Source: Comamonadaceae bacterium (GTDB lineage Bacteria > Pseudomonadota > Gammaproteobacteria > Burkholderiales > Burkholderiaceae_C). Taken from it: DNA of 64,000 nt. Below the pieces are notes generated by a model that had not been told where the DNA came from, did not search any database, and saw only the letters and a list, made by a program, of their open reading frames with translations. Position 1 is the stretch's first letter; each line of letters opens with the position of its first letter. Shown here one piece after another: positions 29,123 through 61,695 of the stretch. The DNA lies in NCBI GenBank assembly GCA_013297875.1, contig JAAFIW010000002.1, forward strand, positions 180,627 through 244,626, read 5' to 3'. Position numbers and translations under genes: made by a program.

Positions 29123-29160
29123 GTTTTCTTTTTCTATCAACCCAACCCCAGGAGATTGCT

Positions 29161-29532: not shown

Positions 29533-29554
29533 CCTGAATAGGTGCTATCGAAAA

Positions 29555-29609
29555 AATAGCTGCCTGAGCAAGTAATCCCTGGGCTGATGGCCGATTTGAC
29601 CTGAAAGCG
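29555..29609. repeat. Dispersed repeat copy (AATAGCTGCCTGAGCAAGTAAT CCCTGGGCTGATGGCCGATTTGACCTGAAAGCG)
   Basis: Lies immediately upstream of the flotillin-ATPase-PLD operon. Confidence 0.65.
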
Positions 29610-29625
29610 TAGTTGCCACGAGTTG

Positions 29626-30288: not shown

Positions 30289-30296
30289 GGGGGGTC

Positions 30297-30920: not shown

Positions 30921-30980
30921 TGACCCACCTCAAAAATATTTACTGTTGATTTGTTGTTTCACTCGACTTGGAGTCTTTCT

Positions 30981-33020: not shown

Positions 33021-33029
33021 TGCTGTGCC

Positions 33030-36000
33030 ATGGAATCTGCTGACATCGACCCCGCACCGGCTGAGCAAACCGAAAGCCTGGTCGCCGCAAGCGGCAGCTA
33101 CGAGCTGCTGAAAAAACGCCTGACGGCCCACGGCCTGGCGCTGCGCGACAAGGCGCAGGCGCTGAACGCGGCGCGCGTGGCGCAGTTTGGCAAGTCTGAA
33201 CAGTCGCTGGTGCTGCGCACCCGTGCCCGCACGCAAAACAACTGCGTGGCGCGCGACATCGTGCGCATTGGTGACCAGCTTTTGTTTGGCTACAACGTCT
33301 TCATTGGCCTGCGCAAAGAAACCAGCGTGGGCGATGTGTTTGGCTTGTACCGGCTGGCCGCGCATGCCGGTGAGCCCGAGCTGGAAGCCTTGCCGTTGGC
33401 GGGCAGCTTTCTGGAAGACGCCCGTTTTGCGTCTGACTTCAAGGAGCTGTACGCTTACTACAAGCAAGCGCAGTTGCTGCAGTTGCGCGTCACGCAGGGC
33501 AAGCTGCTGGCGTCGTTTCAGATCGGCCAGCAGGTGCAGGATGTGCGGGTGTTTCGCTGGCAATTGGCAGCCGATGGTGCGCCCCAGTACATCGACAACC
33601 GGGGTGAGCGCGACATGGCGCTGCCCCCCAGCCATGACTTTGAATGGATACCCACCACGCGAGCCGACCACGCCGAGGGCCGCCACCCGCACATCAGCAT
33701 TCTGGACACGGTGTTTGTGGAAACGGTGGGCGGCGACCTGACCGTCAAGATCGAGAACAACACCGAAACCGGCCTGGGCATCTACAGCGAGCCGGTGGAC
33801 GACAAGAACCAGTCGCTGACCGATGCCGAGGTGGCCTACGCCAAGCTGGGCCAGTTGATCCTGCTGCGCATACGGCCGTATCGCGAGCAAACCACGCGCT
33901 ACCTGGTGTTCAACGAGCGCACGCAGCAGGTCACGCGCATCGACGCGCTAGGTCTGTCGTGCGTGCAGTTGCCCGAAGACCATGGCATTGTGTTTCCCGG
34001 TGGCTACTACCTGCAGTCGGGCGAGTTCAAGCACTTTGACCTGCCCGCTGACGTGGGCAGCAGCCTGCGCTTCAAACGCATGCTGCGCTCGCCCAACGGT
34101 GAGGACGTGTTGTATTTGTTCTACCAGCCGGGCAGCGGCCACTATGCGCTTTTCACCTACAACCTGATCGACAAGACGCTGGCTGCGCCCATCGTGGCCA
34201 ATGGCTATGCGCTGTACCCCGATGGCAAGGTGCTGGTGTTTCAGGTGGGGCCGGGCGAGCCCACACGCGTGCACCCCATGCAGCTGTGGCAAACCGCGTT
34301 TTCCAGTGAAGAACACGCCGGTACTGCCGCGCTGGGCACCGGCTTCTTTGGCCGCATTGGTAATGCCGAATTGGTGCGAGGTGTGGCCGACCTGATGGGC
34401 ATTGCCCGCGCTGTGCAAGAGCAGGCACCCACCCGCGCTGCCTACGACGACCTGATACGCCAGTGCGCCCGCGTGACCGATGCCTATTTCTGGCTGGCCG
34501 ACCCCGAGGCCGGCGCGGCCTTATCTGACCTGCAACGCATCAGCGAGGCCGCACGCACCACGCTGGCCGAGTTTGAAAAGGTCGAGCAAATCCGCCGCGA
34601 GACCGCACGTGCACTCGACGAGGCGCAGACCAAGCAGAAAACGCTGATGGTCGATATCGCCAGCACACTGTGGCGCAAACCGGAAGACTTCATCCACGCG
34701 CTGGGTCGCCTGCGTGAGCGCCGCGGCAACCTGGAAACGCTGAAAGAGCTGCGCTACACCGATTTGCCCCGCATTGAGGCAATGCAAACCGAGCTGGAAG
34801 CCGAGCAGCAGCGTGTGGGCGAGCGGGCCATGGTCTTTTTGGCTGATGAACAGGCGTTTGCCAGCCACCGCCAAAACCTCACCAAGCTCGGCACCGACCT
34901 GGCACAAGCATCTACCAGCCCTGGCCTGCAAATCATTCTGGATAGCCTGGACGAAACCGCCGCTGGGCTGGACTTGCTGACCGAGCAACTGGGCGGCCTG
35001 CCCGGTGGCGATGCGGTGCAGCGCACCACCATTCTGGAGCGCATCTCGGCGCTGTACACCGACATCAACCGCCTGCGCGCCGATGCCCGAAGCCGCCGCA
35101 AGGCGCTGGGCTCGCACGAGGCTGCGGCAGAGTTTCTGGCCCAGTTCAAGCTGTTTGGCCAGGCGGTGGAAAACGCGCTGGACTTTGCCGATAGCCCCGA
35201 AAAATGTGACGAGGCACTCACCCGCCTGCTAGCCCAACTGGAGGAACTGGAAGGCCGCTTTGCCGAGCAGGAAAATTTCCTGGCCGACATTGCCACCAAG
35301 CGCGAGGCTGTTTATGAAGCGCTAACCGCCCGCAAACAAACGCTCACGCAAGCACGCCAGCAGCGCGTGCAAGGCCTGGTGACGGCGGCCGGCCGCATTC
35401 TGGACGGCACGCAACGCCGTGTGGCGCAACTGAGCAAGCTGGAAGAGGTGCACAGCTACTTTGCCGCCGACATGTTGATCAGCAAGCTGCGCAAGCTGGT
35501 GGCCGACATGCGCGCGCTGGGTGCGCAAGTGGCAGCCGACGACATCGAGACCCGGCTCAAAACCAGCCGCGACCAGGCCCTGCGCGGCGTGCGCGACCAG
35601 GCCGAGCTGGTGACCGAGGGCGGCAACAACCTGCGCCTGGGCAAGCATGTGTTCACCATCAGCCGGCATCCGCTGGAGCTGACACTGGTGCCCCACAGCG
35701 ACGGCCTGGCCTACCACCTGACCGGCACCGACTACCTGGTGCCCGTGAACGACCCCGCACTGCAGGCCTACAAGCCGTATTGGCAACAAGCCCTGCCGTC
35801 TGAAACCGCCGCCATCAGCCGCGCCGAATACCTGGCCGGTTGCCTGCTGGACGCATCGCTACAAGGCAGCACGCCACTGCCCTGGGCACGCATGACAGAG
35901 CTGGTCGCGCTGGGGCCAGAAGGCCATGCGGCGCTGCTGGATCAGGTGCGGCAATTTGCCGCCGAGCGTTACCAGGACGGCTACGACAAAGGCGTGCACG

Positions 36001-38216
36001 ACGAAGACGCCACACGCATCTTTGGCGCGCTGGCGGCGATGCAAGACGCAGCCGGTCTGCTGGCCTGGGGCCCGACCGAACGCGCACTGGCCCTGCTGTT
36101 CTGGCACGATGGCCGCAGTGGCAGCGAACGCGAGTCGCTGCAGCGCCGCGCCCGCTCGGCGCTGCAGGTGCAGCAGCTGTTTGGCGCACGTGACAGCCTG
36201 GCGTCGCTGGAGCGGGAATGTGCCCAGGCCCTGGCGGTGTTTGCCCAGGCCGTGGGCTTTGAACTGGAAGGGGCTGCTGATGCCGAGCGCATGGCATCGC
36301 TATGCGCGCAGGCCGCCGCCTATCTGGTGCGCGAAGTGGCCCACGAGGGCGGCGCTGAAACCTGGGTCATCAGCGGCGCGGGTGAAGACCTGGCTGCCGC
36401 CCTGCGGCGCGAGCTGGAGCGCGGTGGCCAATGGGCCAGCTGGCAGCGCAGCCTGGAGGCGTCGACTCCCACCGAGCGCTGGCAGCAGGCGCGCAGCTGG
36501 GTCAAGGCCTTTGCCGGCAAGCAAGACGCGTCTACCCATGACTGGGTCGACGATGCGGCCGGCCTGCTAGCCGTTCCGGTCAAACGCAAGCGCGTGAATG
36601 CCTCGCTGGACGCGACGGTAGAAGGCCTGCGCGGCGAACACACGCGGGTGGACAACAGCCGCATGGCCTTGAACCTGAACGATTTCTGGCGGCGCTTCAG
36701 CTTTCACCGCGACCGCGTGGTGCCCGGCTTCCAGGCGCTGCAAAAGTTGCACCACAGCCTACTCGCCACTGAGAAAACCCGGCTCAGCCTGGCGCAGTTT
36801 CAGGCCAAGCCCTTGCCCAGCTTTGTGCGCAACCGCCTGATTGATGAGGTGTATTTGCCGCTGATTGGCGACAACCTGGCCAAGCAGCTGGGCACCACCG
36901 GCGCAGGCAGCCGCACCGACCGCATGGGCCTGCTGCTGCTGATCTCGCCGCCTGGTTATGGCAAGACCACGCTGATGGAATACGTGGCTGACCGCTTGGG
37001 CCTGGTGTTTGTGCGCATCAACTGCCCGGCGCTGGGCCACGACGTGACCGCGCTGGACCCTGTGTCGGCCGCCAACAGCGCCGCGCGCCAGGAGCTGGAA
37101 AAGCTCAACCTGGGCCTGGCCATGGGCAGCAATGTGATGCTGTACCTGGACGACATCCAGCACACCAGCCCGGAGTTTCTGCAAAAGTTCATCGGCCTGG
37201 CCGACGGCACCCGCCGCATCGAGGGTATGTGGCAGGGCCAGGCCCGCAGCTACGACATGCGTGGCAAGCGCTTTGCGATTGCCATGGCCGGCAACCCCTA
37301 CACCGAGTCGGGCGATGTGTTCAAGATCCCCGACATGCTGGCCAACCGGGCCGACATTTACAACCTGGGCGATGTGCTGGCTGGGCGCGAGGCCTTGTTT
37401 GCGCTGTCGTACATCGAAAACAGCCTGACCAGCAACCCGGCGCTGGCACCGCTGTCGTCGCGCGACCCGCGTGATGTGCAATTGCTGGTGCGCCTGGCGC
37501 AGGGCGAAGACGTGGCCAGCGGCGACTTTGCCCATGCCTACAGCAGCGCCGAGCTGGAGGAGTTGACGGCCTTGCTCAAGCGCCTGTTCCGCGCCCGCGA
37601 CCTGTTGCTCAAAGTCAACCTGGCCTACATTGAGTCTGCCGCTCAGCGCGACAGCTACCGCACCGAGCCGCCCTTCAAGTTGCAGGGCAGCTACCGCAAC
37701 ATGAGCAAGCTGGCCGCCAAGATCACGCCGCTGATGCACGACGACGAGCTGAACGCGCTGCTGCGCGACCACTACCGCGGCGAGGCACAAACGCTGACCA
37801 CCGGCGCGCAAGAAAACCTGCTGAAGCTGGCGCAGCTGATGGGCGCCGCCACCGACGAAGAGAACGCACGCTGGAAAGCCATTTGTGATGAATTCGTGCG
37901 CCAGCGCAAGGCCGGTGGGCAAGACGCCGATGGCACCACCCGCATCGCCAACGCCCTGATGGACGTGAGCCGCGCGGTCGATGAACTCAAACCCGACGGG
38001 CAAGCCCCCGACAGCGAAGGCAAACGAATGGCCGAAGCCGTGCTGCAACTGGCCGTGACCTACCGCACGGTCATCATGCCGCTGATCGCTGCCACCGAAA
38101 AACGCATGGACGTGGACCACAACATCAGCAAGCGGCTGGAGCTGCTCTTGGCCCAGGCTGACGAGATCCGGTCTTCGCGCCCACGGCAGCCCAAAAATAC
38201 GGACGGTTCAGCGTGA
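33030..38216 (+). CDS. 1728-aa protein with a C-terminal MoxR/AAA_5-like P-loop ATPase domain and a very long helical N-terminal region. Function unknown.
   Basis: Single uninterrupted ORF. Walker A LLLISPPGYGKTTLMEYV at about aa 1290, Walker B NVMLYLDDIQH, and the sensor-like RFAIAMAGNPYTE (ATMNP-type). The remaining ~1250 aa are coiled-coil-like with no motif I can name. It sits 9 nt after the flotillin gene and is translationally coupled to the PLD gene downstream. Confidence 0.7.
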   Translation: MESADIDPAPAEQTESLVAASGSYELLKKRLTAHGLALRDKAQALNAARVAQFGKSEQSLVLRTRARTQNNCVARDIVRIGDQLLFGYNVFIGLRKETSVGDVFGLYRLAAHAGEPELEALPLAGSFLEDARFASDFKELYAYYKQAQLLQLRVTQGKLLASFQIGQQVQDVRVFRWQLAADGAPQYIDNRGERDMALPPSHDFEWIPTTRADHAEGRHPHISILDTVFVETVGGDLTVKIENNTETGLGIYSEPVDDKNQSLTDAEVAYAKLGQLILLRIRPYREQTTRYLVFNERTQQVTRIDALGLSCVQLPEDHGIVFPGGYYLQSGEFKHFDLPADVGSSLRFKRMLRSPNGEDVLYLFYQPGSGHYALFTYNLIDKTLAAPIVANGYALYPDGKVLVFQVGPGEPTRVHPMQLWQTAFSSEEHAGTAALGTGFFGRIGNAELVRGVADLMGIARAVQEQAPTRAAYDDLIRQCARVTDAYFWLADPEAGAALSDLQRISEAARTTLAEFEKVEQIRRETARALDEAQTKQKTLMVDIASTLWRKPEDFIHALGRLRERRGNLETLKELRYTDLPRIEAMQTELEAEQQRVGERAMVFLADEQAFASHRQNLTKLGTDLAQASTSPGLQIILDSLDETAAGLDLLTEQLGGLPGGDAVQRTTILERISALYTDINRLRADARSRRKALGSHEAAAEFLAQFKLFGQAVENALDFADSPEKCDEALTRLLAQLEELEGRFAEQENFLADIATKREAVYEALTARKQTLTQARQQRVQGLVTAAGRILDGTQRRVAQLSKLEEVHSYFAADMLISKLRKLVADMRALGAQVAADDIETRLKTSRDQALRGVRDQAELVTEGGNNLRLGKHVFTISRHPLELTLVPHSDGLAYHLTGTDYLVPVNDPALQAYKPYWQQALPSETAAISRAEYLAGCLLDASLQGSTPLPWARMTELVALGPEGHAALLDQVRQFAAERYQDGYDKGVHDEDATRIFGALAAMQDAAGLLAWGPTERALALLFWHDGRSGSERESLQRRARSALQVQQLFGARDSLASLERECAQALAVFAQAVGFELEGAADAERMASLCAQAAAYLVREVAHEGGAETWVISGAGEDLAAALRRELERGGQWASWQRSLEASTPTERWQQARSWVKAFAGKQDASTHDWVDDAAGLLAVPVKRKRVNASLDATVEGLRGEHTRVDNSRMALNLNDFWRRFSFHRDRVVPGFQALQKLHHSLLATEKTRLSLAQFQAKPLPSFVRNRLIDEVYLPLIGDNLAKQLGTTGAGSRTDRMGLLLLISPPGYGKTTLMEYVADRLGLVFVRINCPALGHDVTALDPVSAANSAARQELEKLNLGLAMGSNVMLYLDDIQHTSPEFLQKFIGLADGTRRIEGMWQGQARSYDMRGKRFAIAMAGNPYTESGDVFKIPDMLANRADIYNLGDVLAGREALFALSYIENSLTSNPALAPLSSRDPRDVQLLVRLAQGEDVASGDFAHAYSSAELEELTALLKRLFRARDLLLKVNLAYIESAAQRDSYRTEPPFKLQGSYRNMSKLAAKITPLMHDDELNALLRDHYRGEAQTLTTGAQENLLKLAQLMGAATDEENARWKAICDEFVRQRKAGGQDADGTTRIANALMDVSRAVDELKPDGQAPDSEGKRMAEAVLQLAVTYRTVIMPLIAATEKRMDVDHNISKRLELLLAQADEIRSSRPRQPKNTDGSA

Positions 38217-38920
38217 CGACCAACGCCGAAGCCATGCAAGACCTGCTGGATCAACTGGAAAGCTCTCTGGCCGACCTACGCCTGGACGACGCTGAAAAGC
38301 ACAGCCTGGCCCACACCCTGCGCCAGGCCCAACCGCCAGAAGACGGCTTCAGGCAACTGCGCAACCACGCCTTCGCGCTGGCCCGCAACCGCCTGGCTGC
38401 GCAACAAGACCCCATGGATGTGCTGCGCTGGCTGGAAGCCGTGGTGCGCGCGCTGGACGTGGCCCGTGCCCCGGCGCAGGCCATTCGCTCCAGCGCCCAC
38501 TTCAGCCCCGGAGAAGCCTGCCTGAACACCATCGTTCACCACTTGCGCAGCGCCCGTCGAACGGTCGATTTGTGCGTCTTCACGGTGTCCGATGACCGCA
38601 TCGCTCAAGAGGTGCTGGCCGCCCACGCACGTGGCGTGGCGCTGCGCTTCATCACCGACAACGACAAGGAAACCGATTCCGGCAGCGACGTGACCCGCTT
38701 GCGCGCAGCCGGTGTGCCCACGGTGGTTGACCGCACCGACGCCCACATGCACCACAAGTTTGCAATCTTTGATGGGCAGTGGTTGCTCAACGGCAGCTAC
38801 AACTGGACGCGCAGTGCTTGTACGCACAATGAAGAGAATCTGGTGGCGACGAATGACGCAACGTTGGTGCGGCAGTTTCAGGGGGCGTTTGATCAGTTGT
38901 GGGGGCAATTGGGCGATTGA
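38213..38920 (+). CDS. Phospholipase-D-superfamily (HKD) nuclease-like protein
   Basis: GTG at 38213 overlaps the upstream stop (GTGA). An alternative ATG lies at 38234. Single HKD motif HMHHKFAIFDGQWLLNGSYNWTRSA (HxK...D...GSxN). About 235 aa, typical of Nuc-like endonucleases. Confidence 0.8.
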   Translation: MTTNAEAMQDLLDQLESSLADLRLDDAEKHSLAHTLRQAQPPEDGFRQLRNHAFALARNRLAAQQDPMDVLRWLEAVVRALDVARAPAQAIRSSAHFSPGEACLNTIVHHLRSARRTVDLCVFTVSDDRIAQEVLAAHARGVALRFITDNDKETDSGSDVTRLRAAGVPTVVDRTDAHMHHKFAIFDGQWLLNGSYNWTRSACTHNEENLVATNDATLVRQFQGAFDQLWGQLGD

Positions 38921-38950
38921 CGCGTTGTGCTTGAGCGATGGCATGTAGCG

Positions 38951-39029
38951 GCAGAGTTTGGGTCAGTGGCCCCCACCTGAAACTGTCAAAGGGCCAGAAA
39001 TCGGCGGGAACCACTGCCCCAAACTCTGC
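38951..39029. other. 19-bp inverted repeat (1 mismatch) around a 41-nt loop, immediately 3' of the PLD gene and at the left edge of the low-GC island
   Basis: gcagagtttgggtcagtgg at 38951-38969 and ccactgccccaaactctgc at 39011-39029. No U-tract follows, so it is either an atypical terminator or a recombination/boundary structure. Confidence 0.4.
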
Positions 39030-39309
39030 GGATGGAGTTGATGGGGCGCGCAATGGATTTTGAATCGCCTGAGACGGCAGATCCGGTGCGCTTGCAGTCG
39101 GTCACCCGGAAATCGAGATTAGGCGGTCTGAGCCATAAGCGACGAAAGCTGTACGTCCGCTTTGGGCAAGTTGCAGTCTTCCGTCAGTGACTGCTTTCAG
39201 GTTGCATGCTCAGGGATTGCACCTCTTAGCTTGGGCGGGAGATTCGTGCAGAGCATCCTAAATGGTTCACCTGTCGAAGTGCTAGTATGGCCAACCAAGG
39301 GAGTCAGAC

Positions 39310-40725
39310 ATGCCAGCACTTGAACGAAAGCTTATTGACAATCTCAAAGAACGTCTTATCAAGCATCTGGAATCTACGGGTGGCTATGAGTCCATTGATT
39401 TCATCGATGCGGGGGGGTCAGCGGCAATATTTAAGGTTCGAAGAAGTGATGGACTTAGGGCCGTCAAGATTTTCAATCCTGACCTATTTTCTGGAGCACC
39501 AGCCGCAGCAAGCAAGCGGCGCCTTGACGTCCAGCGGCGGCTAATTGATCACAAGTGCCCCAGCCTCATCCAGACTTATTTTGCCGATGAGTCGGACGGT
39601 ACAGCGATTGTTGAAATGGAATTCAACGAATGGCCGCAACTTTCGAGGCAACTTGGCAAAGTCCCAGATGACGCCATTGGCCGGCTTATGGACCAACTGG
39701 TAGACGCGGTCAAATATCTTGAAAGCATGAATATTGTTCATCGGGACATTAAGCCAGAGAACATACATGTATCTGCAAACTTCCAAGAGCTGAAGTTACT
39801 TGATTTAGGCGTTGCTAGAGAGTTCGACCACTCTGACGAGAGCGACGCCGGAATGACCGACTCGGGCGTTGGCCGACCCTTCCTTGCTACTGCGCAATAC
39901 AGCTCGCCGGAATATCTATTCCGATTAGATGAGCCCACCGATAAATTATGGAAGGGCTTGAACTTTTATCAAGTTGGCGCAGTTCTTCACGACCTCATTA
40001 AGAAAGAGGCGTTGTTCCAACATGAAATTCTGCTAGAGAATCGCTGGCTAGTCGCTCGGGCGGTTCTCACGAAGCAACCCAGCTTCTCCGACAGTGACAC
40101 GAAGCGCCTCGCAGCAGAAAAGGCGCTAGCGCTTCGCTGTTTGACCAAAGACCTCGACACACGTTTGTCTTTGGTTGGCTGGGAGGAGTTCCAATTCAAC
40201 ACGATCGATGACCCACTAACTGCGCTGAAGACCAAGTTGTCGAAAGGATTAGGACATTTAGGAGAAGTTTCCAAATCAACTTCCGCTGCCCGACTCAAAT
40301 ACGAACGACATGAGTACTGCACTCGAATATTTGAGAGGGTTCGAACCGAGCTAATAGCAGTTTGCGGCACGGAATTGCCAGTAACAATGATTACCGACTA
40401 CTCTGGCGATCCCATGAATATCGGGTTTGCCGTCAGTCCAGAAAAGTCAATTCTCGTCCGTATCGAATGCGACGTCTCTTGGAACGCTGGAATCTATGAA
40501 AAATCAGCGCTGATGGAGGTTGGAGCCATGTTTCTTCCAACTTCATCCAAAGCCCGATATGCGGAAACCCCGATGAAGGCCTGCTTAGAGATGAGCGTTG
40601 GTGCCGCCGAGGACGAAACGGTAACGTCTATCGCGAATAGTATTGCCAAACTGATAGGACTTGCACTTTCGCGCATTGAAGCAACGGGCGGAGATCCAAG
40701 GACGCTTCAGGGAATTTCGGTTTAA
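39310..40725 (+). CDS. Hanks-type Ser/Thr protein kinase domain protein with a ~220-aa C-terminal domain that has no recognisable motifs
   Basis: Gly-rich loop DAGGSAAIFKV, the VAIK-type Lys in RAVKIF, catalytic loop IVHRDIKPENIHV, LLDLGVARE (DFG-equivalent) and YSSPEYL (APE). Low GC. Confidence 0.8.
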   Translation: MPALERKLIDNLKERLIKHLESTGGYESIDFIDAGGSAAIFKVRRSDGLRAVKIFNPDLFSGAPAAASKRRLDVQRRLIDHKCPSLIQTYFADESDGTAIVEMEFNEWPQLSRQLGKVPDDAIGRLMDQLVDAVKYLESMNIVHRDIKPENIHVSANFQELKLLDLGVAREFDHSDESDAGMTDSGVGRPFLATAQYSSPEYLFRLDEPTDKLWKGLNFYQVGAVLHDLIKKEALFQHEILLENRWLVARAVLTKQPSFSDSDTKRLAAEKALALRCLTKDLDTRLSLVGWEEFQFNTIDDPLTALKTKLSKGLGHLGEVSKSTSAARLKYERHEYCTRIFERVRTELIAVCGTELPVTMITDYSGDPMNIGFAVSPEKSILVRIECDVSWNAGIYEKSALMEVGAMFLPTSSKARYAETPMKACLEMSVGAAEDETVTSIANSIAKLIGLALSRIEATGGDPRTLQGISV

Positions 40726-40742
40726 ACAAACGGAGGTGGCAG

Positions 40743-41903
40743 ATGAAATCGAGCTGGTGGCGAAAAAAGAACGAACTGGTCCCGGAGCAAATTAACTTTA
40801 TTAATCTGCCGCCTCAGGGGCGCTATTCGCTGGTGGGCCCGCCGGGCTCTGGCAAGACCAACCTATTGCTGCTGCGGGCCCAGTTCCTGGCTGGTAACGG
40901 CGAAAAGAACGTCCTAATCATTACCTATACCAATTCACTCTGTGACTTCATCCGCTCTGGGATTGGAAAAACGGGTCATATTCTCGCTCGTCAAGTGATG
41001 ACCTACCACTCTTGGGCGGGAAATCACATCATCGACCAACTAGGCGTCAGCAAAAAGCCCAAGGGGAGCGCCTTTGACGATGAAACCCGTGCCGAAATTC
41101 TTGAGAGGCTGAAGGAAGCAAATTCGAAGCGCCCCTCAGAGAAGATGTACAGCGCGATTTTTGTCGACGAGGCTCAGGACCTGTCGGCGAATGAACTGGA
41201 GCAGCTACTCTGTCTGAGTGACAAAATCTGTATTTGTGGTGATGACAAACAGGGCATCTTCTATCAGGACGGATTGTCCGTTGCGGAGAAACTGAAGCTC
41301 GAGAAGCATGAGCTCACAAGCCACTTCCGCATCGGTCAGCGAATAGCGGAGGTAGCAGATAGATTGGTTCCTCCTCCTGCAGGAGAGACAGGTCTTGCCG
41401 CTCGAGCGAACTACAATGAGAAGCTCCAAGGCAAGTCCACTGCTGAGCTACATCCAAGGGATAGCCGTGACGAGCAGTTTGCCAAGATGGCAGAGCTGAT
41501 TCGTGTGCAACTAGTGGCTTTCATTGATGACAATATTGGCGTCTTTGCTGGAACCAATGAGGCTATCGCGGAACTGAAGGAGCGATTCGACGCAACTGAA
41601 CTTTCTGGCCTTGTTGCATACCACGGTCAGGAAGGGGGCGGTTCATTTTCGTCGGATTCACGAATTCATGTGATGACTCTCCATAACTCAAAGGGTACGG
41701 AGTTCCGAGCCGTCCACATTTTCGCTGCGGAAGAGCTTCATGGGTTTCCACTTCGCCGAACCAAGTTGGCCTATACAGGTATCACCCGAGCCCGTACTGC
41801 ATTGAATGTGTTCCGAACAGGCCCCACAAGTGTAGGCCTCGAGAATGCCTTCGCGAAACCGTCGCTCATGGACATGGATGCCCTCTTTGAGGAGGATGCA
41901 TGA
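40743..41903 (+). CDS. Minimal UvrD/Rep-like superfamily-1 helicase (about 386 aa, core motifs only)
   Basis: Motif I GPPGSGKT, Ia IITYTNS, II FVDEAQD, III CGDDKQGIFYQ, V MTLHNSKGTEFRAVHIF and VI YTGITRAR. GGAGG Shine-Dalgarno. The stop overlaps the next ATG (ATGA). Confidence 0.85.
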   Translation: MKSSWWRKKNELVPEQINFINLPPQGRYSLVGPPGSGKTNLLLLRAQFLAGNGEKNVLIITYTNSLCDFIRSGIGKTGHILARQVMTYHSWAGNHIIDQLGVSKKPKGSAFDDETRAEILERLKEANSKRPSEKMYSAIFVDEAQDLSANELEQLLCLSDKICICGDDKQGIFYQDGLSVAEKLKLEKHELTSHFRIGQRIAEVADRLVPPPAGETGLAARANYNEKLQGKSTAELHPRDSRDEQFAKMAELIRVQLVAFIDDNIGVFAGTNEAIAELKERFDATELSGLVAYHGQEGGGSFSSDSRIHVMTLHNSKGTEFRAVHIFAAEELHGFPLRRTKLAYTGITRARTALNVFRTGPTSVGLENAFAKPSLMDMDALFEEDA

Positions 41904-43378
41904 ACGAAGTGATTCGATGGTTTGCAATCGGTAAAGAGGATTTACTGGATGTGCTCCTCGGCGAAGCATCGCCGAGCGGGCAATCCTCCAGCGTTCCGCC
42001 GCTGCCTGACCTTCGGGCCGGGAAACTCGCGCTTGGGTACAGGGCGGACGACTGCGTGGCGATGTCCCCAATGTGTGGGCCCGCGCTAGTGATCGTTGAG
42101 GACGACTCCGCCACAGAAACAATGTCGTGGCTACGCGCGTTCGCCGACGAAGCGTTTCCCATGAGTCAGTTTGCGCGAATAGTGAAACTCAGTGACTGGG
42201 TCATGTTCTCGTCAATGCGGAAGAACTTCAGCCAGGTTGGAGATTTCTACCCGGAGAGGTGGGCTTCGGTTTCGGTTGGTGAAGTGATGGCACAGGCCGA
42301 GTCGGATGTCGATTTGCAGAACATGCCGCTGTCCCGCTTGGCAAGTTCACTAACTTTGCCAGTTGGACGAGCCTCCCATCTTTTTGACAGCGGCGACGCG
42401 ACCCAGCAATGTGTGGATAGACTTCGGATCGTTTCGAGCGATGCGAGGTTCGTTCATAGACCCATAACCGTTTCTCAACTCACTCCTATCTGGGCTCTAT
42501 GCAGCGCCAGGATTGGGGGCCATCTTGAGGCGCAAGAGTCAGCTCAAATGGTGGTCAAGGCGGCAAGCGGATACTTTCGCGACCAAGCGGACCTAATGCC
42601 ACCAGAAGACGGTCTCTTCCTTGAGCGCTATGTGGGTCTCCAAAGCGATTCCGCGGAGGAGCGCGTCATGGCGTTCAATGAGTTCTCTCGCGATGTTCTC
42701 AAGTTCCCAGCCTCGCAGTTAGCGTCGTCGGGTGCGCCCCTGCTCGCTGCAGCCGCCTTCATGGTGGGGCGCAGCACATCTCATGTGTTCCTGTTGAATC
42801 ACTTTCGTAGAGCAGCACCCGTGGCGTTTGCTTGGTTTGGCCTGATAGCTGCCCTCGCAGGCTCACGCTGCTGGGATGGCGAATGGCTGCGGGCAGTCAA
42901 GGGTGCGGAGCGCCTTCTCAAGCCTCGGTTCGAATGGACCGACACCTCACCAGCAGACATTGGATGGCCTGAGTTCGCATGGCTCGCCAGCTTGCGCGAC
43001 GATGTCTACCAGTTGGTAGAACTGCCTAAGATGCTGCCGCGTACTCTCGGGGTCGAGGTCGTGCCCGGTGTTGTACTACAGGTTCGCCTTGGACAGGGAA
43101 GCGGAGGCGATGAGATGCACGCTGTTCGTGTGACCTCTGCGAGGGAGCATGAATTGGCGGATGCACTCAACCAAATCCTGGAAGTTGCACTAAAGGTCCG
43201 AGGACATGAAGTGCGAAGCAATGCCCCTGAACGTGGCCGCTACGCCGGGCGTGGCCGCCAATCTCAACAGTCTTTCGACCTAGATCAACAGTCTTTCGAC
43301 CTAGAGGACCGCCCAACCGGCATCACAGGTAAAACATCTAGTGGGAAAAAGGGTAAGCGCGACATAGAGAGCCCCTGA
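41900..43378 (+). CDS. Hypothetical protein (492 aa), translationally coupled to the helicase, no recognisable domain
   Basis: Clean ORF with a GAGGAGG Shine-Dalgarno. GC content is intermediate between the island and the host. C-terminal Arg/Gly/Gln-rich tail with the short tandem QQSFDLDQQSFDLE. Confidence 0.6.
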   Translation: MNEVIRWFAIGKEDLLDVLLGEASPSGQSSSVPPLPDLRAGKLALGYRADDCVAMSPMCGPALVIVEDDSATETMSWLRAFADEAFPMSQFARIVKLSDWVMFSSMRKNFSQVGDFYPERWASVSVGEVMAQAESDVDLQNMPLSRLASSLTLPVGRASHLFDSGDATQQCVDRLRIVSSDARFVHRPITVSQLTPIWALCSARIGGHLEAQESAQMVVKAASGYFRDQADLMPPEDGLFLERYVGLQSDSAEERVMAFNEFSRDVLKFPASQLASSGAPLLAAAAFMVGRSTSHVFLLNHFRRAAPVAFAWFGLIAALAGSRCWDGEWLRAVKGAERLLKPRFEWTDTSPADIGWPEFAWLASLRDDVYQLVELPKMLPRTLGVEVVPGVVLQVRLGQGSGGDEMHAVRVTSAREHELADALNQILEVALKVRGHEVRSNAPERGRYAGRGRQSQQSFDLDQQSFDLEDRPTGITGKTSSGKKGKRDIESP

Positions 43379-43614
43379 ACTTAGCGCTAGCAAGGTGCCG
43401 AGCACGACCGCTGGGGCCTTTCATCAAGACAGCGGCAATCTACCTAGGCGCCTAACGGAGAAAGCTGACTAGTCTGAAGTCATATTGCGTGTGTCAGCGT
43501 CGATCAGCAAAACGCCTTTTGTTGTGTCTCTGCTTGGCGGGCACTAATGGCCTTTGTTGTCATGTAACTCGGGTAAAAAGACGTGGTGAGTTACGAATTC
43601 CGTGGAGGCTCCTT

Positions 43615-45369
43615 ATGATTGACCTAGCCAAGTTGTTTTTCGAGAAAGTTCCGAAGTTTTTTTTCGATCACTTGCCTCGCCGCAGCGGCATCTCGCGACT
43701 TGAGAAAATCGCATTTGAATGCGACGCACTAGCGACTGCACTAGAGCTGCAAGGCGCACCTTTTCCAGTTTCACGATTGAAGCTGCAACTGAGTCGGTTT
43801 CGAAATCAGCCACCCGAGAAGATCGAAGAAGAAAATATTGACGAAATTGTGGAGGATATCGAGGATAGATTGATAGATCTAGATAACCTCTCTGCTCAGA
43901 CCGAGAGCCCGCGGAGTACATTTCTTGAGCAACAAAAGACGGCAAAGGAATTAAGGGCGATAGCGCTTAGGCTTCGCAACACTCGCACTAAAAAGCAGAT
44001 TGTCCGGCGGGCGTTCGGGATCACAGCAGCGGTTACGGTTGTTGGCTTTGCACTATTTGGCGGCTCCAGACTATTAGAGTCTTGGAAATCGTGGAAGCGC
44101 TCTTCGAGAGCAAGAACCGAATTTGTCAAAGCCAATGTAAAGAGGATGGACGGACCGTACACCATTGATACTTGGGATAGCGGGCTTGCGCCTTCAGCAA
44201 ATTGGAGAGTTGTCGACAGGGAGTTCAAGCTTATTCGATTCAACCCAGAGTTCCCGGCGGCTCCGCGTGAGCCTGGGGAACGGATCGCCAATGTGGAATC
44301 AACAGTTGCAAGGCTTAGCGCTTTTCTTGCCCAAAAGCCTCCGCCTCCCGCTGTAATCATTAAAGGTCGACTAGGAGAAGGGATGGGATACGTCCCGGCG
44401 CACCTCTTTTCCAGGCTGCTTGAAAATGCATTAAACGCAGACAACTTTGACGCATCATTTGCCGGATACAAACGCTGGGTGTTTACTGTTGATCAGACCC
44501 AGCTACAGCACTTTAGCGATGCCACAAAATATCCAGTGGACGATTTTCGAAAGTTCCTCCTAGATAAGGCAAAAAAGCATCTTCTGCCAGAGACACTTAC
44601 GGATGAAGCGATATTCGAAAATTCTATTATTATTTTTAACAACACGCCGACTTTGGCACTGGCAAAGCTGCTGCCTATCTTAATAGCCGCCGCCGAAGAG
44701 TGGTTCGCCACTATGGTCGTCTCTATACCAATTCAAGGCCTGACTGGACTAAATTCCCTCTCGCTTCAGAAAGGCATTCAACTCGAGCTTTTGGCGTACA
44801 AGGACGACGTGCAAACTCTAAGTAATCTGGCAACGGTATCGCTGACTCATTATTTAAACAGTAGGAAAACGCTGGCCAGAGACAGTGGCCACATTCAAAA
44901 GGCTGCAGCGGTCATGCTTTCCGACCCTTTCGCACCGCACATGCTTGCGAACTGGCGAATATCCAGACACTACATTCGAGCGCGATTCGAAGGAGTGACT
45001 GACCTTGCCTCAATGAAACCGCTTTCTCCTGTCGATAGCACCGCAGTTGCCTCTACTGCCGTTAAGGCAGCCCTTGATGCCTATGTCAATAGCTGGCTGG
45101 GAGAACTTAGTAATAAATCCCCTCTCATTCAGTTTAGCAGGCTCACAACACTTATCAGGGATGCTCTATTGCGTTCCGGCTCGAATCAGCCCTTTACTGA
45201 TACCGATTGCTACGAGTTAATCATCGCATCAGGTATCGTTGAACGAGGATCAGTTGAAATCGAAAATGTGCGACTAGTCATCAAGGGATCTCCATTCTTC
45301 AAGTCGGATTCGAACGGTGAAATGACTTGGTTGCCATTTACCCCCAACGTTAGCCAAATAATCTCGTAG
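43615..45369 (+). CDS. Hypothetical membrane-anchored protein (585 aa). Acidic and coiled N-terminal region, one predicted TM helix, large C-terminal domain.
   Basis: ATG at 43615 with GGAGG 7 nt upstream. The ORF track extends it to 43489. Acidic stretch EKIEEENIDEIVEDIEDRLIDLDNL, hydrophobic segment AFGITAAVTVVGFALFGG. Low GC. Confidence 0.55.
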   Translation: MIDLAKLFFEKVPKFFFDHLPRRSGISRLEKIAFECDALATALELQGAPFPVSRLKLQLSRFRNQPPEKIEEENIDEIVEDIEDRLIDLDNLSAQTESPRSTFLEQQKTAKELRAIALRLRNTRTKKQIVRRAFGITAAVTVVGFALFGGSRLLESWKSWKRSSRARTEFVKANVKRMDGPYTIDTWDSGLAPSANWRVVDREFKLIRFNPEFPAAPREPGERIANVESTVARLSAFLAQKPPPPAVIIKGRLGEGMGYVPAHLFSRLLENALNADNFDASFAGYKRWVFTVDQTQLQHFSDATKYPVDDFRKFLLDKAKKHLLPETLTDEAIFENSIIIFNNTPTLALAKLLPILIAAAEEWFATMVVSIPIQGLTGLNSLSLQKGIQLELLAYKDDVQTLSNLATVSLTHYLNSRKTLARDSGHIQKAAAVMLSDPFAPHMLANWRISRHYIRARFEGVTDLASMKPLSPVDSTAVASTAVKAALDAYVNSWLGELSNKSPLIQFSRLTTLIRDALLRSGSNQPFTDTDCYELIIASGIVERGSVEIENVRLVIKGSPFFKSDSNGEMTWLPFTPNVSQIIS

Positions 45370-45490
45370 AGACTGTAATGGCTGCAGCGGCTGCAACGAC
45401 GCTGGAACGAGCGCGCGTGCGCGTCAAACAACTTCTTCTGCCCTTGGATGGGATACGCCACCAGCCAGAAAGCCCGGCTCGCGCACAGCT

Positions 45491-45760
45491 TTAAATGCGC
45501 GACCCCCACGTTGTACAACACGCCGCCCACAACATCGCCTCGTCGCTCCAGTCAAACTGGAACGCCTCGCCCAGCTCAAAGCTCAAGGGCACGAAGGCCT
45601 TGGCAGGCCTGCGTCCGAGCGCGTACGCCACGAGCGGATGAAGTCCGTGACCGCGCTGTAGCCACCGCGGTAAACCTGCGTCTAGATCTATAGTCCGCTC
45701 GACTTCGCTGCACAGGTTGTTTAAGAGGCCGCTCTTGGAAAGCGAAATTGACGTGCGCAA
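45491..45760 (-). pseudogene. IS21-family transposase (IstA) remnant
   Basis: ...KAFVPLSFELGEAFQFDWSDEAMLW matches the IstA region around the first catalytic Asp (compare E. coli IS21 ...RFETQPGYQLQHDWGE...). It is truncated immediately afterwards. Confidence 0.45.
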
Positions 45761-45933
45761 CTTCCGCTTTGGGCTCGGAACCAGCCGGTCACTGCGAAAA
45801 CCTGAATGCCCGTTTTGGGTCTTTAACGGCCATGAAGCCTGACAACGAGGCAGGCCCGCTTTCGAGGAACACAGCGGACTTTACAAACCACCGTGGGGAA
45901 TGATCGAGTGACCGACGAAGTCGCTATTTCTTT

Positions 45934-45990
45934 AGTAGCTGCTTGAGCATATCCCCTGGGGGTTAGAGGCGTATTTGGCATAAGTGTTAA
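45934..45990. repeat. Dispersed repeat copy (AGTAGCTGCTTGAGCAT...CCTGGGGG...)
   Basis: Sits just left of DR2. Confidence 0.55.
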
Positions 45991-46022
45991 GTGGGAGCAA
46001 CCTAGTTATCCAGTCGCAGACG

Positions 46023-46108
46023 CCACCGTGGTCGACCGCACCGACGCCCACATGCACCACATGTTTGCCATTTTTGATGGGCAGTGCTTGCTCAATGGAA
46101 GCTACAAC
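46023..46108 (+). pseudogene. Displaced, diverged duplicate of the PLD-gene 3' end (right-hand direct repeat of the island)
   Basis: ccaccgtggtcgaccgcaccgacgcccacatgcaccacatgtttgccatttttgatgggcagtgcttgctcaatggaagctacaac matches 38718-38803. It encodes TVVDRTDAHMHHMFAIFDGQCLLNGSYN, then diverges. Confidence 0.55.
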
Positions 46109-46150
46109 CCGAAGCCAGTCACGGACACACTATGTTCTTTGCCTGCTCTT

Positions 46151-46210
46151 AAATCAATAGCTGCTTGAGCAATGTATCTCTGGGCTGTTGGCCGATTTGG
46201 CTCATATTCC
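46151..46210. repeat. Dispersed repeat copy (AAATCAATAGCTGCTTGAGCAATGTATCTCTGGGCTGTTGGCCGATTTGGCTC)
   Basis: Sits just right of DR2. Near-identical to the copies at 11818 and 29555. Confidence 0.65.
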
Positions 46211-46277
46211 AGCCCGTCTTCATGCCGCACTACACTTTTGACTGTGTGAGTTAAAAACCCCGAGAGGAAACGGTGTC

Positions 46278-47450
46278 ATGAACATCTTGTCAATCGCCAA
46301 CGGCCAGCTCTGGCACACCCAAGGCTCGGCGCCCGCCAACCAACTGCAATCGCAGTTCGCCAAGGAACTGATCGAGCGCGAAGCCCAGAGCCGCCGCACC
46401 ACCGGCTGGAAGCATGCCGAGCGTGAGGGTCAATCCGGCATGCTTTCCGGCTCGCAGCTGTGGGGCCGAGGCGGCGGTAGTGGCGAGCTGGCACCGCCGC
46501 GCTATTTGTATGCCTGCACCGGTGCCGACCCGCAAACCCTGTACTACACCTTGAGCGTGGCCCGCAGCGTGGGCCTGTTTCGCTACCACGTGGGCGAGCA
46601 GCGCGAGGTGCGGCTGTTTCACCGCAACAAGGTGCCGGTGCTGGGCATGGCGTTTGACCCGCGCGCCAACCGCATCATTTTGGCTAACGGTAACGACGAT
46701 GGCACGGCCCAGCTGGATGTGTATGACGACGAAGGCAACCACAAAGGATCGATCACCGGTGGCGACTGCGTGGACGCCGCGCCCGCGATGATTCCGGCGC
46801 TGGCCTCCACCCTCATTTACCAGTCGTGCGGTGTGGCGCGTCACCCGCAAACCGGCCAGGTGGTGGCCATGGGCCACAGCACCATCAACCGCTTGAACTA
46901 CGCCAACGGCCAGCTCGACACCATTCTGGAAGACCCGGCCTACGACTTTGTGGCCCCCAAAGCTGGTGTCGACGGCACGCTGTACGCCATTCGCCGCCCG
47001 GTCGAAAAACCGGTGCAAGAGCAGGCGGGCAGCGCCATTAAAGACACCTTGCTGCTGCCCTTTCGCCTGGGCAAAGCCATCTTTGGCTACCTGAACTTCT
47101 TCTCGATGATCTACGGCAAAGAACCCTTGCGCTCCGCCGGCGGCCCCCGCACCCCTGAGCTGGACCAAGACCTGGGCAAGCTGTGGCTGCACGGCCGAAT
47201 GATCGAGCTGTCCAAAATCAAACTCGATGCGCAATACAACGGCAGCCTGGTGCCTGCGTCGTGGGAGCTGGTCTGCCTGCCGCCCAACAGCTCGGCGATG
47301 CAGGTGCTGGCGTCACATGTGGCCAGTTTTGATGTGACGGCCGATGGCACCGTGGTCTACACCAATGGCTATGACTTGACCGCGCTGCGCGGAGGAACTG
47401 CGCAGAAGCTGGGGCGGCACGAGTTGGTGGAAGGCGTAGCAGTGGGGTGA
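46278..47450 (+). CDS. Hypothetical protein (390 aa, host-like high GC)
   Basis: Clean ATG with a Shine-Dalgarno. No recognisable motif. Before the island insertion it would have sat immediately downstream of the PLD gene. Confidence 0.6.
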   Translation: MNILSIANGQLWHTQGSAPANQLQSQFAKELIEREAQSRRTTGWKHAEREGQSGMLSGSQLWGRGGGSGELAPPRYLYACTGADPQTLYYTLSVARSVGLFRYHVGEQREVRLFHRNKVPVLGMAFDPRANRIILANGNDDGTAQLDVYDDEGNHKGSITGGDCVDAAPAMIPALASTLIYQSCGVARHPQTGQVVAMGHSTINRLNYANGQLDTILEDPAYDFVAPKAGVDGTLYAIRRPVEKPVQEQAGSAIKDTLLLPFRLGKAIFGYLNFFSMIYGKEPLRSAGGPRTPELDQDLGKLWLHGRMIELSKIKLDAQYNGSLVPASWELVCLPPNSSAMQVLASHVASFDVTADGTVVYTNGYDLTALRGGTAQKLGRHELVEGVAVG

Positions 47451-61608: not shown

Positions 61609-61695
61609 GCGCGGGTGGCGAAATTGGTAGACGCACCAGGTTTAGGTCCTGACGGTGGCAACACTGTGGGGGTTCGAGTCCCCCCTCGCGCACCA
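61609..61695 (+). tRNA. tRNA-Leu (anticodon UAG), class II with long variable arm
   Basis: Acceptor GCGCGGG/CTCGCGC (one G-U pair), D-arm GCGAAATTGGTAGACGC, anticodon arm CCAGG-TTTAGGT-CCTGA with UAG at 34-36, long variable arm, T-arm GGGGG-TTCGAGT-CCCCC, discriminator A, encoded CCA. Folded by hand. Confidence 0.8.

What the first reader, a model, noticed from the sequence alone, without database searches (positions are those of the whole stretch)
38718..46108. Island inserted into the 3' end of the PLD gene, flanked by 86-bp imperfect direct repeats
The last 86 bp preceding the PLD catalytic-motif region (38718-38803) recur at 46023-46108, with about 78/86 identities by hand count. Everything in between (about 7.1 kb) is compositionally foreign and ends with an IS21 IstA remnant (45491-45760). 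The downstream copy encodes a diverged, truncated PLD C-terminus. This is the arrangement expected when an element integrates into a gene's 3' end and supplies a replacement 3' end. No integrase is present, so either it is an old immobilised insertion or integration was IS-mediated.
Basis: seen in the sequence. Interest (0 to 1): 0.6.

Follow-up and report, generated by a model that had tools for sequence, protein, structure and literature searches.

The report
Leftover PLD gene scrap beside imported DNA
The 86-bp repeat is real, but it is a dead scrap of a second copy of a nuclease gene, left among other gene fragments where imported DNA was patched into the chromosome; it is not the attachment site of a mobile island, so this is ordinary genome archaeology.

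Summary
38718-38803 and 46023-46108 share 78/86 bases, the DNA between them is low in GC, and an IS21 istA piece is present.

The interpretation mostly fails:
- The PLD gene (38213-38920) is intact. It stays colinear with orthologues through its stop codon, a conserved hairpin and about 250 bp of spacer, in genomes that lack the island.
- The "island" is a composite: a three-gene kinase/helicase/unknown cassette found with the same edges in four unrelated contexts, an orphan ORF, and an internal istA scrap. No recombinase is present.
- A remnant of the region downstream of a vapC gene (45816-46022) separates this DNA from the downstream repeat.
- The downstream repeat is an internal 28-codon piece covering the HKD catalytic motif. 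It has lost the catalytic lysine (K to M). Six of its eight differences from the upstream copy are synonymous, so it once belonged to a second, functional PLD allele.

A relative that shares both chromosomal flanks lacks the whole 16-kb stretch.

Best reading: a relic of a displaced PLD allele, left by recombinational replacement at a variable site. Interest is low. The uncharacterised DUF3686 operon and the kinase cassette are the more interesting by-products.

The parts
29555..29755 (+). Left chromosomal flank edge: a REP-like repeat (29555-29598) plus the first ~130 bp of the operon's first gene. This is the last stretch shared with relative L083.
   Evidence: Window 28748-29717 matches L083 2-977 at 81.8%. 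The alignment fades near 29755.
29623..38920 (+). Five-gene operon: 221-aa and 207-aa unknowns, a flotillin-like 689-aa protein, a 1728-aa DUF3686/DUF7902/AAA ATPase, and a 235-aa PLD.
   Evidence: Pfam hits. The core genes co-occur in 34-46 of the 82 loci held then, 80 of them relatives fetched with PLD.
38213..38920 (+). Intact PLD/Nuc-like gene (PLDc_2, HKD motif).
   Evidence: PF13091 E=1.9e-30. Orthologues are 75-90% identical in amino acids over residues 1-235. There is no identity discontinuity along the gene.
38718..38803 (+). Repeat copy 1: codons 169-197, the HKD catalytic motif of the live gene.
38921..39167 (+). Native spacer downstream of PLD, including a conserved long hairpin (38951-39029).
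   Evidence: Shared with L003 to 39140-39165, with L008/L009 to 39029-39039, and with L005/L007 to 38964. Hairpin dG is -46.8 kcal/mol, z = -2.7.
39156..39167 (+). Left copy of a 12-nt exact direct repeat, TCCGCTTTGGGC, at the point where homology with L003 ends.
   Evidence: 10 of 300 shuffles of the two boundary zones reach 12 nt.
39242..43382 (+). Three-gene cassette: Ser/Thr kinase (39310-40725), short SF1/UvrD-like helicase (40743-41903), unknown 492-aa protein (41900-43378).
   Evidence: Pfam and PADLOC hits. The same 4.1-kb unit, with the same edges, is found in Pseudothauera (84.8% nt), Variovorax and two Logan contigs.
43489..45369 (+). Orphan ORF (626 aa from a GTG start; called as 584 aa elsewhere), GC 0.49.
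   Evidence: The only match among 5.8 billion proteins is itself. No family hits. No metagenome relatives.
45402..45689 (-). Internal fragment of an IS21-family istA gene (about residues 86-182). No IS ends and no istB.
45763..45774 (+). Right copy of the 12-nt direct repeat TCCGCTTTGGGC. Probable right edge of the low-GC insert.
45816..46022 (-). Remnant of the region downstream of a vapC (PIN) gene. It includes one REP-like repeat (core at 45936-45949) and the last ~11 codons of vapC (45990-46022, now carrying a stop).
   Evidence: 81-87% identical to L005 9238-9445. In L005 this stretch runs into an intact 133-aa PIN-domain gene.
46023..46108 (+). Repeat copy 2: a dead internal PLD fragment (codons 169-197) with catalytic K to M and W to C; the other six differences are synonymous.
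46140..47450 (+). Right chromosomal flank: a native REP-like repeat (core at 46158-46171) and a conserved 390-aa hypothetical gene (46278-47450).
   Evidence: Shared with L083/L084 from 46157 at 86% and with L085.

Best explanation
The downstream 86 bp is a relic of a second, once-functional allele of the PLD gene. It was stranded at the right edge of a variable chromosomal site when most of that allele and its operon were replaced or deleted by recombination. It is not an attachment site.

The site is layered:
(i) Chromosomal flanks: up to about 29755 on the left and from about 46140 on the right. These lie only 1.5 kb apart in a relative.
(ii) An operon block that carries its own native downstream DNA: the PLD gene, hairpin and spacer to about 39167, and then 45775-46022, the remnant downstream of vapC.
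(iii) About 6.6 kb of low-GC DNA set into that spacer: the kinase cassette, the orphan ORF and the istA scrap, bracketed by a 12-nt repeat.

The most likely single mechanism is homology-anchored replacement. Incoming DNA from a related bacterium paired with the resident operon on the left. Its non-homologous right end, inside vapC, joined illegitimately inside the resident PLD at codon 169. This displaced the remainder of the old gene downstream. A later small deletion removed the old gene's last 38 codons.

Shown here: the anatomy, the allele-like pattern of divergence, and the absence of att features.

Inferred: the order of events, and which allele was the resident one.
For: PLD and its downstream DNA:
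- PLD is intact and its 3' end is orthologous, with no identity break across the repeat.
- Non-coding DNA after the stop codon is shared with relatives that lack the insert, up to 39029-39165.

The fragment itself:
- Six of the eight differences between the copies are synonymous third-position changes. P is about 0.001-0.002 under unconstrained mutation.
- The variant states of copy 2 are polymorphisms seen in orthologues of related genomes.
- The two non-synonymous changes hit the catalytic Lys and a conserved Trp, as expected after the fragment died.

The surrounding region:
- Copy 2 sits in a run of truncated relics: an internal istA piece and the vapC tail with its downstream region, which is shared with L005, where an intact PIN gene follows.
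- L005 links the PLD operon and this vapC region within 8.3 kb. This supports treating them as one ancestral block.

The chromosomal site:
- L083 shares both chromosomal flanks. Between them it has only a 130-bp 5' remnant of the operon's first gene and a TPR gene. The site therefore turns over, and the operon probably once sat there.

The cassette:
- It is a self-contained unit seen in four other contexts without PLD pieces.

Precedent:
- Homology-facilitated illegitimate recombination that displaces old gene parts downstream has been proposed for Vibrio T6SS and Rhs loci (PMC5361080).
Against: - No genome was found that carries the presumed resident arrangement, an intact operon abutting the 46278 gene. 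A degenerate-pattern scan for an intact allele with the fragment's synonymous variants found nothing.
- The fragment lacks its own 3' end, so at least one extra deletion must be assumed.
- Only one relative (L083) shares the chromosomal flanks, and only one (L005) shares the vapC remnant.
- The microhomology at the 46022/46023 joint (CACC.TGG) is weak and was judged by eye.
- Relatives are 82-90% identical in DNA, too distant to map a left crossover point.
Confidence: 0.6

Rival explanations
1. The fragment hitch-hiked. The 86 bp came in with the imported DNA from a donor genome in which this DNA lay next to, or inside, that donor's PLD gene. On this reading it is donor-derived rather than a remnant of the resident allele.
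For: The synonymous-biased divergence fits any foreign functional allele equally well. The fragment abuts block-level DNA, the vapC tail, on its left. The whole interval is absent from L083.
Against: In every relative, PLD lies upstream of its neighbours on the same strand. A donor arrangement that places an internal PLD piece to the right of vapC needs its own prior rearrangement. The 130-bp operon remnant in L083 suggests that the operon was resident at this site.
Confidence: 0.15
2. Local copy. An 86-bp patch of the resident PLD was copied, as filler or templated DNA during break repair or by a small duplication, into the junction region. It has since drifted.
For: Copy 2 is slightly closer to copy 1 (78/86) than to any of the 49 orthologous sequences compared (at most 77/86). 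It shares rare states with copy 1 at alignment positions 26 and 71. Both ends of the fragment are abrupt.
Against: Drift in a dead fragment should be about 20% synonymous. Even allowing for synonymous change in the live copy, about one third synonymous is expected. Six of eight were observed. At least three of the synonymous changes appear derived on the copy-2 lineage when polarised with relatives.
Confidence: 0.15
3. An integrative element recombined site-specifically inside the PLD 3' end. The 86-bp repeats are attL and attR, and the element supplied a replacement 3' end. The element is now immobilised.
For: There are direct repeats with a 28-bp perfectly identical stretch (alignment positions 12-39). 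Foreign-composition DNA lies between them. PLD remains intact.
Against: - The sequence after copy 1, including about 250-360 bp of non-coding DNA, is orthologous to relatives that lack the element.
- No original PLD 3' end follows copy 2.
- A vapC-region remnant lies between the foreign DNA and copy 2.
- No integrase is present, only an internal istA scrap.
- The cargo cassette occurs elsewhere with different, tighter edges.
- No relative has a duplicated PLD segment.
Confidence: 0.05

Closest known systems
Displaced ('orphan') gene fragments left by homology-facilitated illegitimate recombination, as proposed for Vibrio cholerae T6SS effector-immunity arrays and for Rhs/CDI orphan toxin tips (PMC5361080 and references in it)
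   Same: An intact upstream gene is followed by newly acquired foreign DNA and then a partial older copy that begins inside a conserved region. The older copy differs in the manner of an independent allele. No recombinase is involved.
   Different: Here the displaced piece is only 86 bp, has lost its own 3' end and carries no functional cargo such as an immunity gene. No arrays or recurrences are seen in 80 related loci. The gene is a PLD nuclease in an uncharacterised operon, not a polymorphic toxin.
Integrase-mediated genomic islands or prophages that insert into the 3' end of a gene or tRNA and duplicate it as attL/attR
   Same: Direct repeats derived from a gene flank compositionally foreign DNA, and the target gene stays intact.
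   Different: The repeats are not at the junctions. There is no integrase. No displaced native 3' end follows the right copy. The interior is a composite. The left 'island-supplied' sequence is in fact orthologous host-type DNA.
Variable gene-cargo hotspots and defence islands, where cassettes are exchanged next to conserved anchor genes
   Same: The DNA downstream of PLD differs in nearly every relative, with nested insertions (L010 empty, L007 with 2.8 kb, L009 with 7.2 kb). The cassette here looks defence-like and sits in defence-rich contexts elsewhere.
   Different: The downstream genes in most relatives are ordinary signalling or metabolic genes. The chromosomal flanks of the operon also differ. 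This looks like general mosaicism rather than a dedicated hotspot.

Membership tests
Site-specific integrative island with att duplication | A tyrosine or serine recombinase (integrase) gene within or beside the element | tested here: not met
   Pfam, NCBIfam, PADLOC and PHROG scans of all large ORFs in 38921-46277 found a kinase, a helicase and two unknowns. The only mobility signal is a 288-bp internal istA piece.
Site-specific integrative island with att duplication | The direct repeats lie exactly at the boundaries between host and foreign DNA | tested here: not met
   Host-type sequence continues about 230-360 bp beyond copy 1. A 207-bp vapC-region remnant separates the foreign DNA from copy 2.
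Site-specific integrative island with att duplication | The right repeat is followed by the displaced native 3' end of the target gene | tested here: not met
   There is no significant PLD similarity after 46108: 265 of 500 shuffles score as well. Thirty-one bp later the native REP/46278 flank begins.
Site-specific integrative island with att duplication | The same element with the same ends occurs elsewhere, and/or relatives show an empty site with a single repeat copy | tested here: not met
   The cassette recurs with edges at 39242-43382 and no PLD pieces. All 80 PLD loci have one copy but unrelated downstream DNA. L083 lacks PLD altogether.
IS21-family insertion sequence or composite transposon | Intact istA and istB, terminal inverted repeats, and a short target-site duplication | tested here: not met
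   Only an internal fragment covering IstA residues ~86-182 is present, with no istB and no ends.
Displaced gene remnant from homology-anchored (HFIR-type) replacement | An intact gene copy, then non-homologous DNA, then a partial second copy in the same orientation that starts inside the gene | tested here: met
Displaced gene remnant from homology-anchored (HFIR-type) replacement | The second copy diverged as a functional allele (an excess of synonymous differences), not as a decaying local duplicate | tested here: met
   Six of eight differences are synonymous, P about 0.001-0.002. The variant states are polymorphic in orthologues. The sample is small (8 sites).
Displaced gene remnant from homology-anchored (HFIR-type) replacement | An illegitimate joint with microhomology at the non-anchored end | tested here: inconclusive
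   The joint at 46022/46023 fuses the vapC tail to PLD codon 169. A weak CACC.TGG similarity between the L005 vapC sequence and PLD was seen by eye. No statistical support.
Displaced gene remnant from homology-anchored (HFIR-type) replacement | The ancestral (resident) arrangement is recoverable in a relative | tested here: not met
   No locus has PLD next to the 46278 gene. The pattern scan for the old allele found nothing. Only an operon 5' remnant in L083 hints at former residence.
PLD superfamily (HKD, Nuc-like) for the two copies | The HxK(x)4D(x)6GSxN motif | tested here: met
   Copy 1 reads HHKFAIFDGQWLLNGSYN within a PF13091 match. Copy 2 reads HHMFAIFDGQCLLNGSYN, so the lysine is lost and the fragment fails the motif.

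The most novel reading that the evidence does not exclude
The conserved HKD-motif region of this PLD gene might serve repeatedly as a recombination anchor through which new cargo cassettes are swapped in downstream of the DUF3686/PLD operon. Old PLD tips would then be displaced, as happens with Rhs/CDI or T6SS orphan arrays. That would be a recombinase-free mechanism for cassette exchange attached to a candidate defence operon.
Probability: 0.07. Interest if true: 0.5.

Novelty: new member of a known kind. Interest (0 to 1): 0.2.

Why it matters
The main value is as a correction. A gene-derived direct repeat around foreign DNA can look like an att duplication and yet be a recombination scar. 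Comparison with relatives separates the two readings. The locus also shows how a chromosomal site can be built in layers: an operon block, a cassette set into that block, and relics at the seams, all without any dedicated recombinase. The biologically more promising material lies in the flanking content, not in the repeat. One item is a widely transferred five-gene DUF3686/flotillin-like/PLD operon that has no literature. The other is a three-gene kinase/helicase cassette that travels between defence-rich contexts.

Tried and rejected
- Exact-protein look-ups for the 46278 gene and the orphan ORF as I delimited them: not on record. The orphan was later found with a shorter start.
- Metagenome scan for relatives of the orphan ORF: none.
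- Metagenome scan with a degenerate pattern for an intact PLD allele carrying the fragment's synonymous variants: none.
- Extension of the repeat with gapped local alignment on both sides: not better than shuffles.
- Search for other operon-derived relics inside the interval (blastn and tblastx): only the 86 bp and the REP repeat.
- Rfam scan of 38800-46400: nothing near gathering scores.
- tRNA genes as possible integration targets: none nearby; the only one is at 61609.
- Breakpoint scan of PLD identity against 11 relatives: no discontinuity.
- Search for the right-flank gene of the Rhodoferax relatives (patatin, L010) in the window: absent.
- Literature searches for DUF3686, for PF12458, and for a kinase + UvrD + NERD anti-phage system: no papers.
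- REPIN/RAYT-type capture was considered and set aside, because the two REP copies around the fragment are in direct, not inverted, orientation.
- Assembly artefact was considered and rejected, because two independent assemblies agree with the window.
Full report
**1. The observation.**
The two 86-bp segments align without gaps at 78/86 identities. They are the strongest direct repeat in 37.5-47.5 kb. In the whole window the match has E=2e-25 and exactly two copies. Gapped local alignment of the sequences that follow or precede the two copies scores no better than shuffles. On the right 265/500 shuffles reach the observed score, and on the left 460/500 do. The repeat is therefore about 86 bp with abrupt ends.

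GC falls from 0.625 in the upstream operon to 0.53 at 39242-43382 and 0.49 at 43383-45401. It returns to 0.634 in the gene at 46278.

The IS21 remnant is real but sits at 45402-45689 on the minus strand. It is 89.7% identical to an annotated istA on Variovorax plasmids and corresponds to an internal stretch, about residues 86-182 of IstA. It has no IS ends and no istB.

Logan assemblies from two sequencing runs are base-for-base identical to the window over 29368-41146 and 41829-47047. The junctions are therefore not an artefact of one assembly.

**2. What the two copies are.**
The upstream gene (38213-38920, 235 aa) is a PLDc_2/Nuc-like protein (PF13091, E=1.9e-30). Copy 1 covers codons 169-197. 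This is the HKD motif itself, HMHHKFAIFDGQWLLNGSYN, not the sequence before it.

Copy 2, read in the same frame, gives HMHHMFAIFDGQCLLNGSYN and then unrelated sequence with a stop. It is an internal piece that lacks the last 38 codons.

Of the eight differences, six are synonymous third-position changes. The other two replace the catalytic Lys and a conserved Trp. Only 19-22% of random single-base changes in these codons would be synonymous, so six or more of eight has P of about 0.001-0.002. Allowing for synonymous change on the live-gene lineage, I estimate about one third synonymous under a local-copy model, which is still a poor fit.

The synonymous states of copy 2 are the same polymorphisms seen among orthologues from related genomes. 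Most of the divergence therefore accumulated while copy 2 was part of a working PLD gene. It is a relic of a second allele, not a decayed local duplicate and not a generic dispersed repeat.

**3. PLD is not interrupted.**
A scan of one genome per species returned 80 loci encoding relatives of this PLD, the closest from Rhodoferax-like MAGs at 86-90% amino-acid identity. PLD here is full length. Identity to 11 relatives shows no step across the repeat. It is 82-85% in the 5' half, 88-94% in the repeat and 85-94% in the 3' end for the ten Rhodoferax-like relatives that align there (L013, a Ramlibacter MAG, is lower throughout).

Homology continues past the stop codon into non-coding DNA:
- to 38964 in L005 and L007;
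- to 39029-39039 in L008 and L009, that is through a conserved long hairpin at 38951-39029 (dG -46.8 kcal/mol, z = -2.7);
- to 39140 in L003, with traces to about 39165.

L003 then runs into an unrelated convergent gene. These relatives lack the kinase DNA. The sequence to the right of copy 1, for about 360 bp, is therefore native to the operon and was not supplied by an element.

**4. The interior is a composite.**
The ORFs are a Ser/Thr kinase (39310-40725), a short SF1/UvrD-like helicase (40743-41903), an unknown 492-aa protein (41900-43378) and an unknown 626-aa ORF (43489-45369).

The first three form a unit. Close homologues of the kinase (77-91% identity) exist in many Proteobacteria. 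In four other contexts the same 4.1-kb stretch aligns to window 39242/39273/39300 through 43372-43382 and no further, with no PLD-like sequence nearby. These contexts are Pseudothauera nasutitermitis (84.8% nucleotide identity), Variovorax sp. 22077 and two Logan contigs.

The fourth ORF has no relative other than itself among 5.8 billion proteins. No recombinase is present.

A 12-nt exact direct repeat, TCCGCTTTGGGC, lies at 39156-39167 and again at 45763-45774. The first position is exactly where homology with L003 ends. The second lies between the istA scrap and the next conserved segment. Ten of 300 shuffles of the two ~0.5-0.9-kb boundary zones reach 12 nt. Within the much narrower zones defined independently by homology, such a match is unlikely by chance; this last point is my own estimate and was not a tool result. 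I take 39168-45762 as the low-GC insert proper, and I mark this as inference.

**5. What separates the insert from copy 2.**
Window 45816-46022 is 81-87% identical to L005 9238-9445. In L005 this is the intergenic region downstream of a minus-strand gene, plus that gene's last 11 codons. The gene is an intact 133-aa PIN-domain VapC.

In the window only the tail survives, with Trp replaced by a stop, and it is fused at 46022/46023 to PLD codon 169. In L005 this vapC region lies 8.3 kb downstream of the PLD operon. The operon and the vapC region are thus neighbours in at least one related genome.

Copy 2 is therefore one item in a row of truncated relics: the istA piece, the vapC tail and the PLD piece.

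**6. The dispersed repeat.**
The motif TAGCTGCTTGAGCA, with a GCTAY partner 13 nt upstream and a CTGGGC...GATTTG tail, occurs 14 times in the window against 0.6 expected. The copies with the full structure lie between the long ORFs listed. One copy lies on each side of copy 2, with cores at 45936 and 46158, both in the same orientation. The right-hand one is native: relatives L083 and L085 have it just upstream of their 46278 homologue. Another copy (29555-29598, 86% identical to 46156-46199) precedes the operon, and L083 has that one too.

**7. The chromosomal site.**
The 390-aa gene at 46278 is a conserved hypothetical of Burkholderiales. Its closest homologue (93%) lies on L083. There, window 28748-29717 and window 46157-47450 are only 1.5 kb apart.

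Between them L083 has the first ~130 bp of the operon's first gene, continuing as a 60-aa ORF, and a 410-aa TPR gene on the other strand. The whole 29755-46140 stretch is therefore variable. The 5' remnant suggests that an operon of this kind once sat at this site in the common ancestor (inference).

None of the 80 PLD loci has the 46278 gene after PLD, and none has a second PLD fragment within 10 kb. The DNA downstream of PLD differs in almost every relative, with nested insertions: L010 is empty, L007 has 2.8 kb and L009 has 7.2 kb before the same patatin gene.

**8. Mechanism.**
The simplest account of all this is replacement or displacement by recombination. A block from a related bacterium carried the operon, PLD, spacer with the low-GC insert, and the vapC region. 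It paired with a resident operon on the left. On the right it joined illegitimately, inside vapC on the incoming side and at PLD codon 169 on the resident side.

This leaves an intact incoming PLD, then the foreign DNA, then the remainder of the old PLD. That is the pattern proposed for homology-facilitated illegitimate recombination in Vibrio T6SS clusters and Rhs loci (PMC5361080). A later deletion must have removed the old gene's last 117 bp and its terminator, leaving 31 bp before the native REP.

A two-step version is equally compatible: insertion of a second operon block upstream of the resident one, followed by deletion from vapC to PLD codon 168.

What is shown is the anatomy, the allele-like divergence and the lack of att features. 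The direction (resident versus donor origin of the fragment) and the order of events are inferred. I give the relic/displacement reading 0.6, a hitch-hiked donor fragment 0.15, a locally copied patch 0.15 and the att model 0.05.

**9. Limits.**
The relatives are only 82-90% identical in DNA. One relative supports each of the two key context inferences, L083 for the chromosomal flanks and L005 for the vapC remnant. The synonymous-bias test rests on eight sites. No genome with the presumed ancestral arrangement was found, and a pattern scan for the old allele in metagenome contigs was empty.

**10. Verdict.**
The repeat is real and PLD-derived. It is a recombination scar at the seam of a layered, recombinase-free mosaic, not the flank of an integrated island. 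As a finding it is ordinary (interest 0.2).

The by-products deserve more attention than the repeat:
- The DUF3686/flotillin-like/PLD operon is spread across at least six phyla and has no literature.

Noticed in passing
window 29623-38920 (+): An uncharacterised five-gene operon: two small unknowns (221 and 207 aa), a 689-aa flotillin-like protein, a 1728-aa DUF3686 + DUF7902 + AAA ATPase and the 235-aa PLD nuclease-like protein. The core genes co-occur next to PLD in 34-46 of the 82 loci held at that point (80 relatives plus two same-genome contigs). The fetched loci span Burkholderiales, Xanthomonadales, Myxococcota, Verrucomicrobiota, Bacteroidota and Planctomycetota, always in different neighbourhoods. 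No paper in the library mentions DUF3686 or PF12458. PADLOC gives only weak LmuB- and DrmC-like hits. It could be an undescribed conflict or defence system.
   Followed up: partly
window 39242-43382 (+); also L089 9991-14052, L090 907-5010, L092 7201-11289: A three-gene cassette (471-aa Ser/Thr kinase, 386-aa short SF1/UvrD-like helicase, ~485-aa unknown) that moves as a unit with the same edges. In Pseudothauera it lies among an integrase, AbiEi, a methyltransferase, a caspase-like protease and a large reverse transcriptase. In a Logan contig it lies next to a TIR-domain gene. PADLOC hits are to PD-T4-6/mad6/C3a189 for the kinase and to C3a187 (NERD+UvrD)/GajB for the helicase. It is probably a defence system. 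I found no named system that matches this gene set.
   Followed up: partly
[not shown]
   Followed up: partly
window 43489-45369 (+): A long ORF (626 aa from GTG; called as 584 aa in other assemblies) with GC 0.49. It has no homologue other than itself in 5.8 billion proteins, no family hits and no metagenome relatives. It is either a true orphan gene or non-coding foreign DNA with an accidental open frame.
   Followed up: partly
window 3314, 11820, 14658, 18250, 29557, 45936, 46158, 52636, 53861, 57161, 61475 (cores): A dispersed REP-like repeat of about 60-70 bp: GCTAY-N8-TAGCTGCTTGAGCA-N8-10-CTGGGC-N8-GATTTG. It gives 14 hits against 0.6 expected. It has an internal GCTA/TAGC inverted pair. 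It is conserved at orthologous positions in relatives L083 and L085. Copies mark both edges of the variable 16-kb stretch.
   Followed up: partly
window 38951-39029: A long, imperfect hairpin (27-nt arms, dG -46.8 kcal/mol, z = -2.7) immediately after the PLD stop codon. It is conserved in L008 and L009. It is longer than a usual intrinsic terminator and has no Rfam match above threshold.
   Followed up: partly
L007 13380-13450 and L009 17695-17765: In two Rhodoferax relatives, the insertions between PLD and the shared patatin gene each end with a ~78-bp piece that resembles part of a minus-strand gene (84.6% identical between the two loci). This may be another seam relic of the same kind as the PLD fragment.
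   Followed up: no
L083 887-1069 versus window 29623-29755: Relative L083 keeps only the first ~130 bp of the operon's first gene, reading on as a 60-aa ORF. A 410-aa TPR-repeat gene follows where the window has 16 kb. This is evidence that the same chromosomal site has been remodelled independently in a sister lineage.
   Followed up: partly
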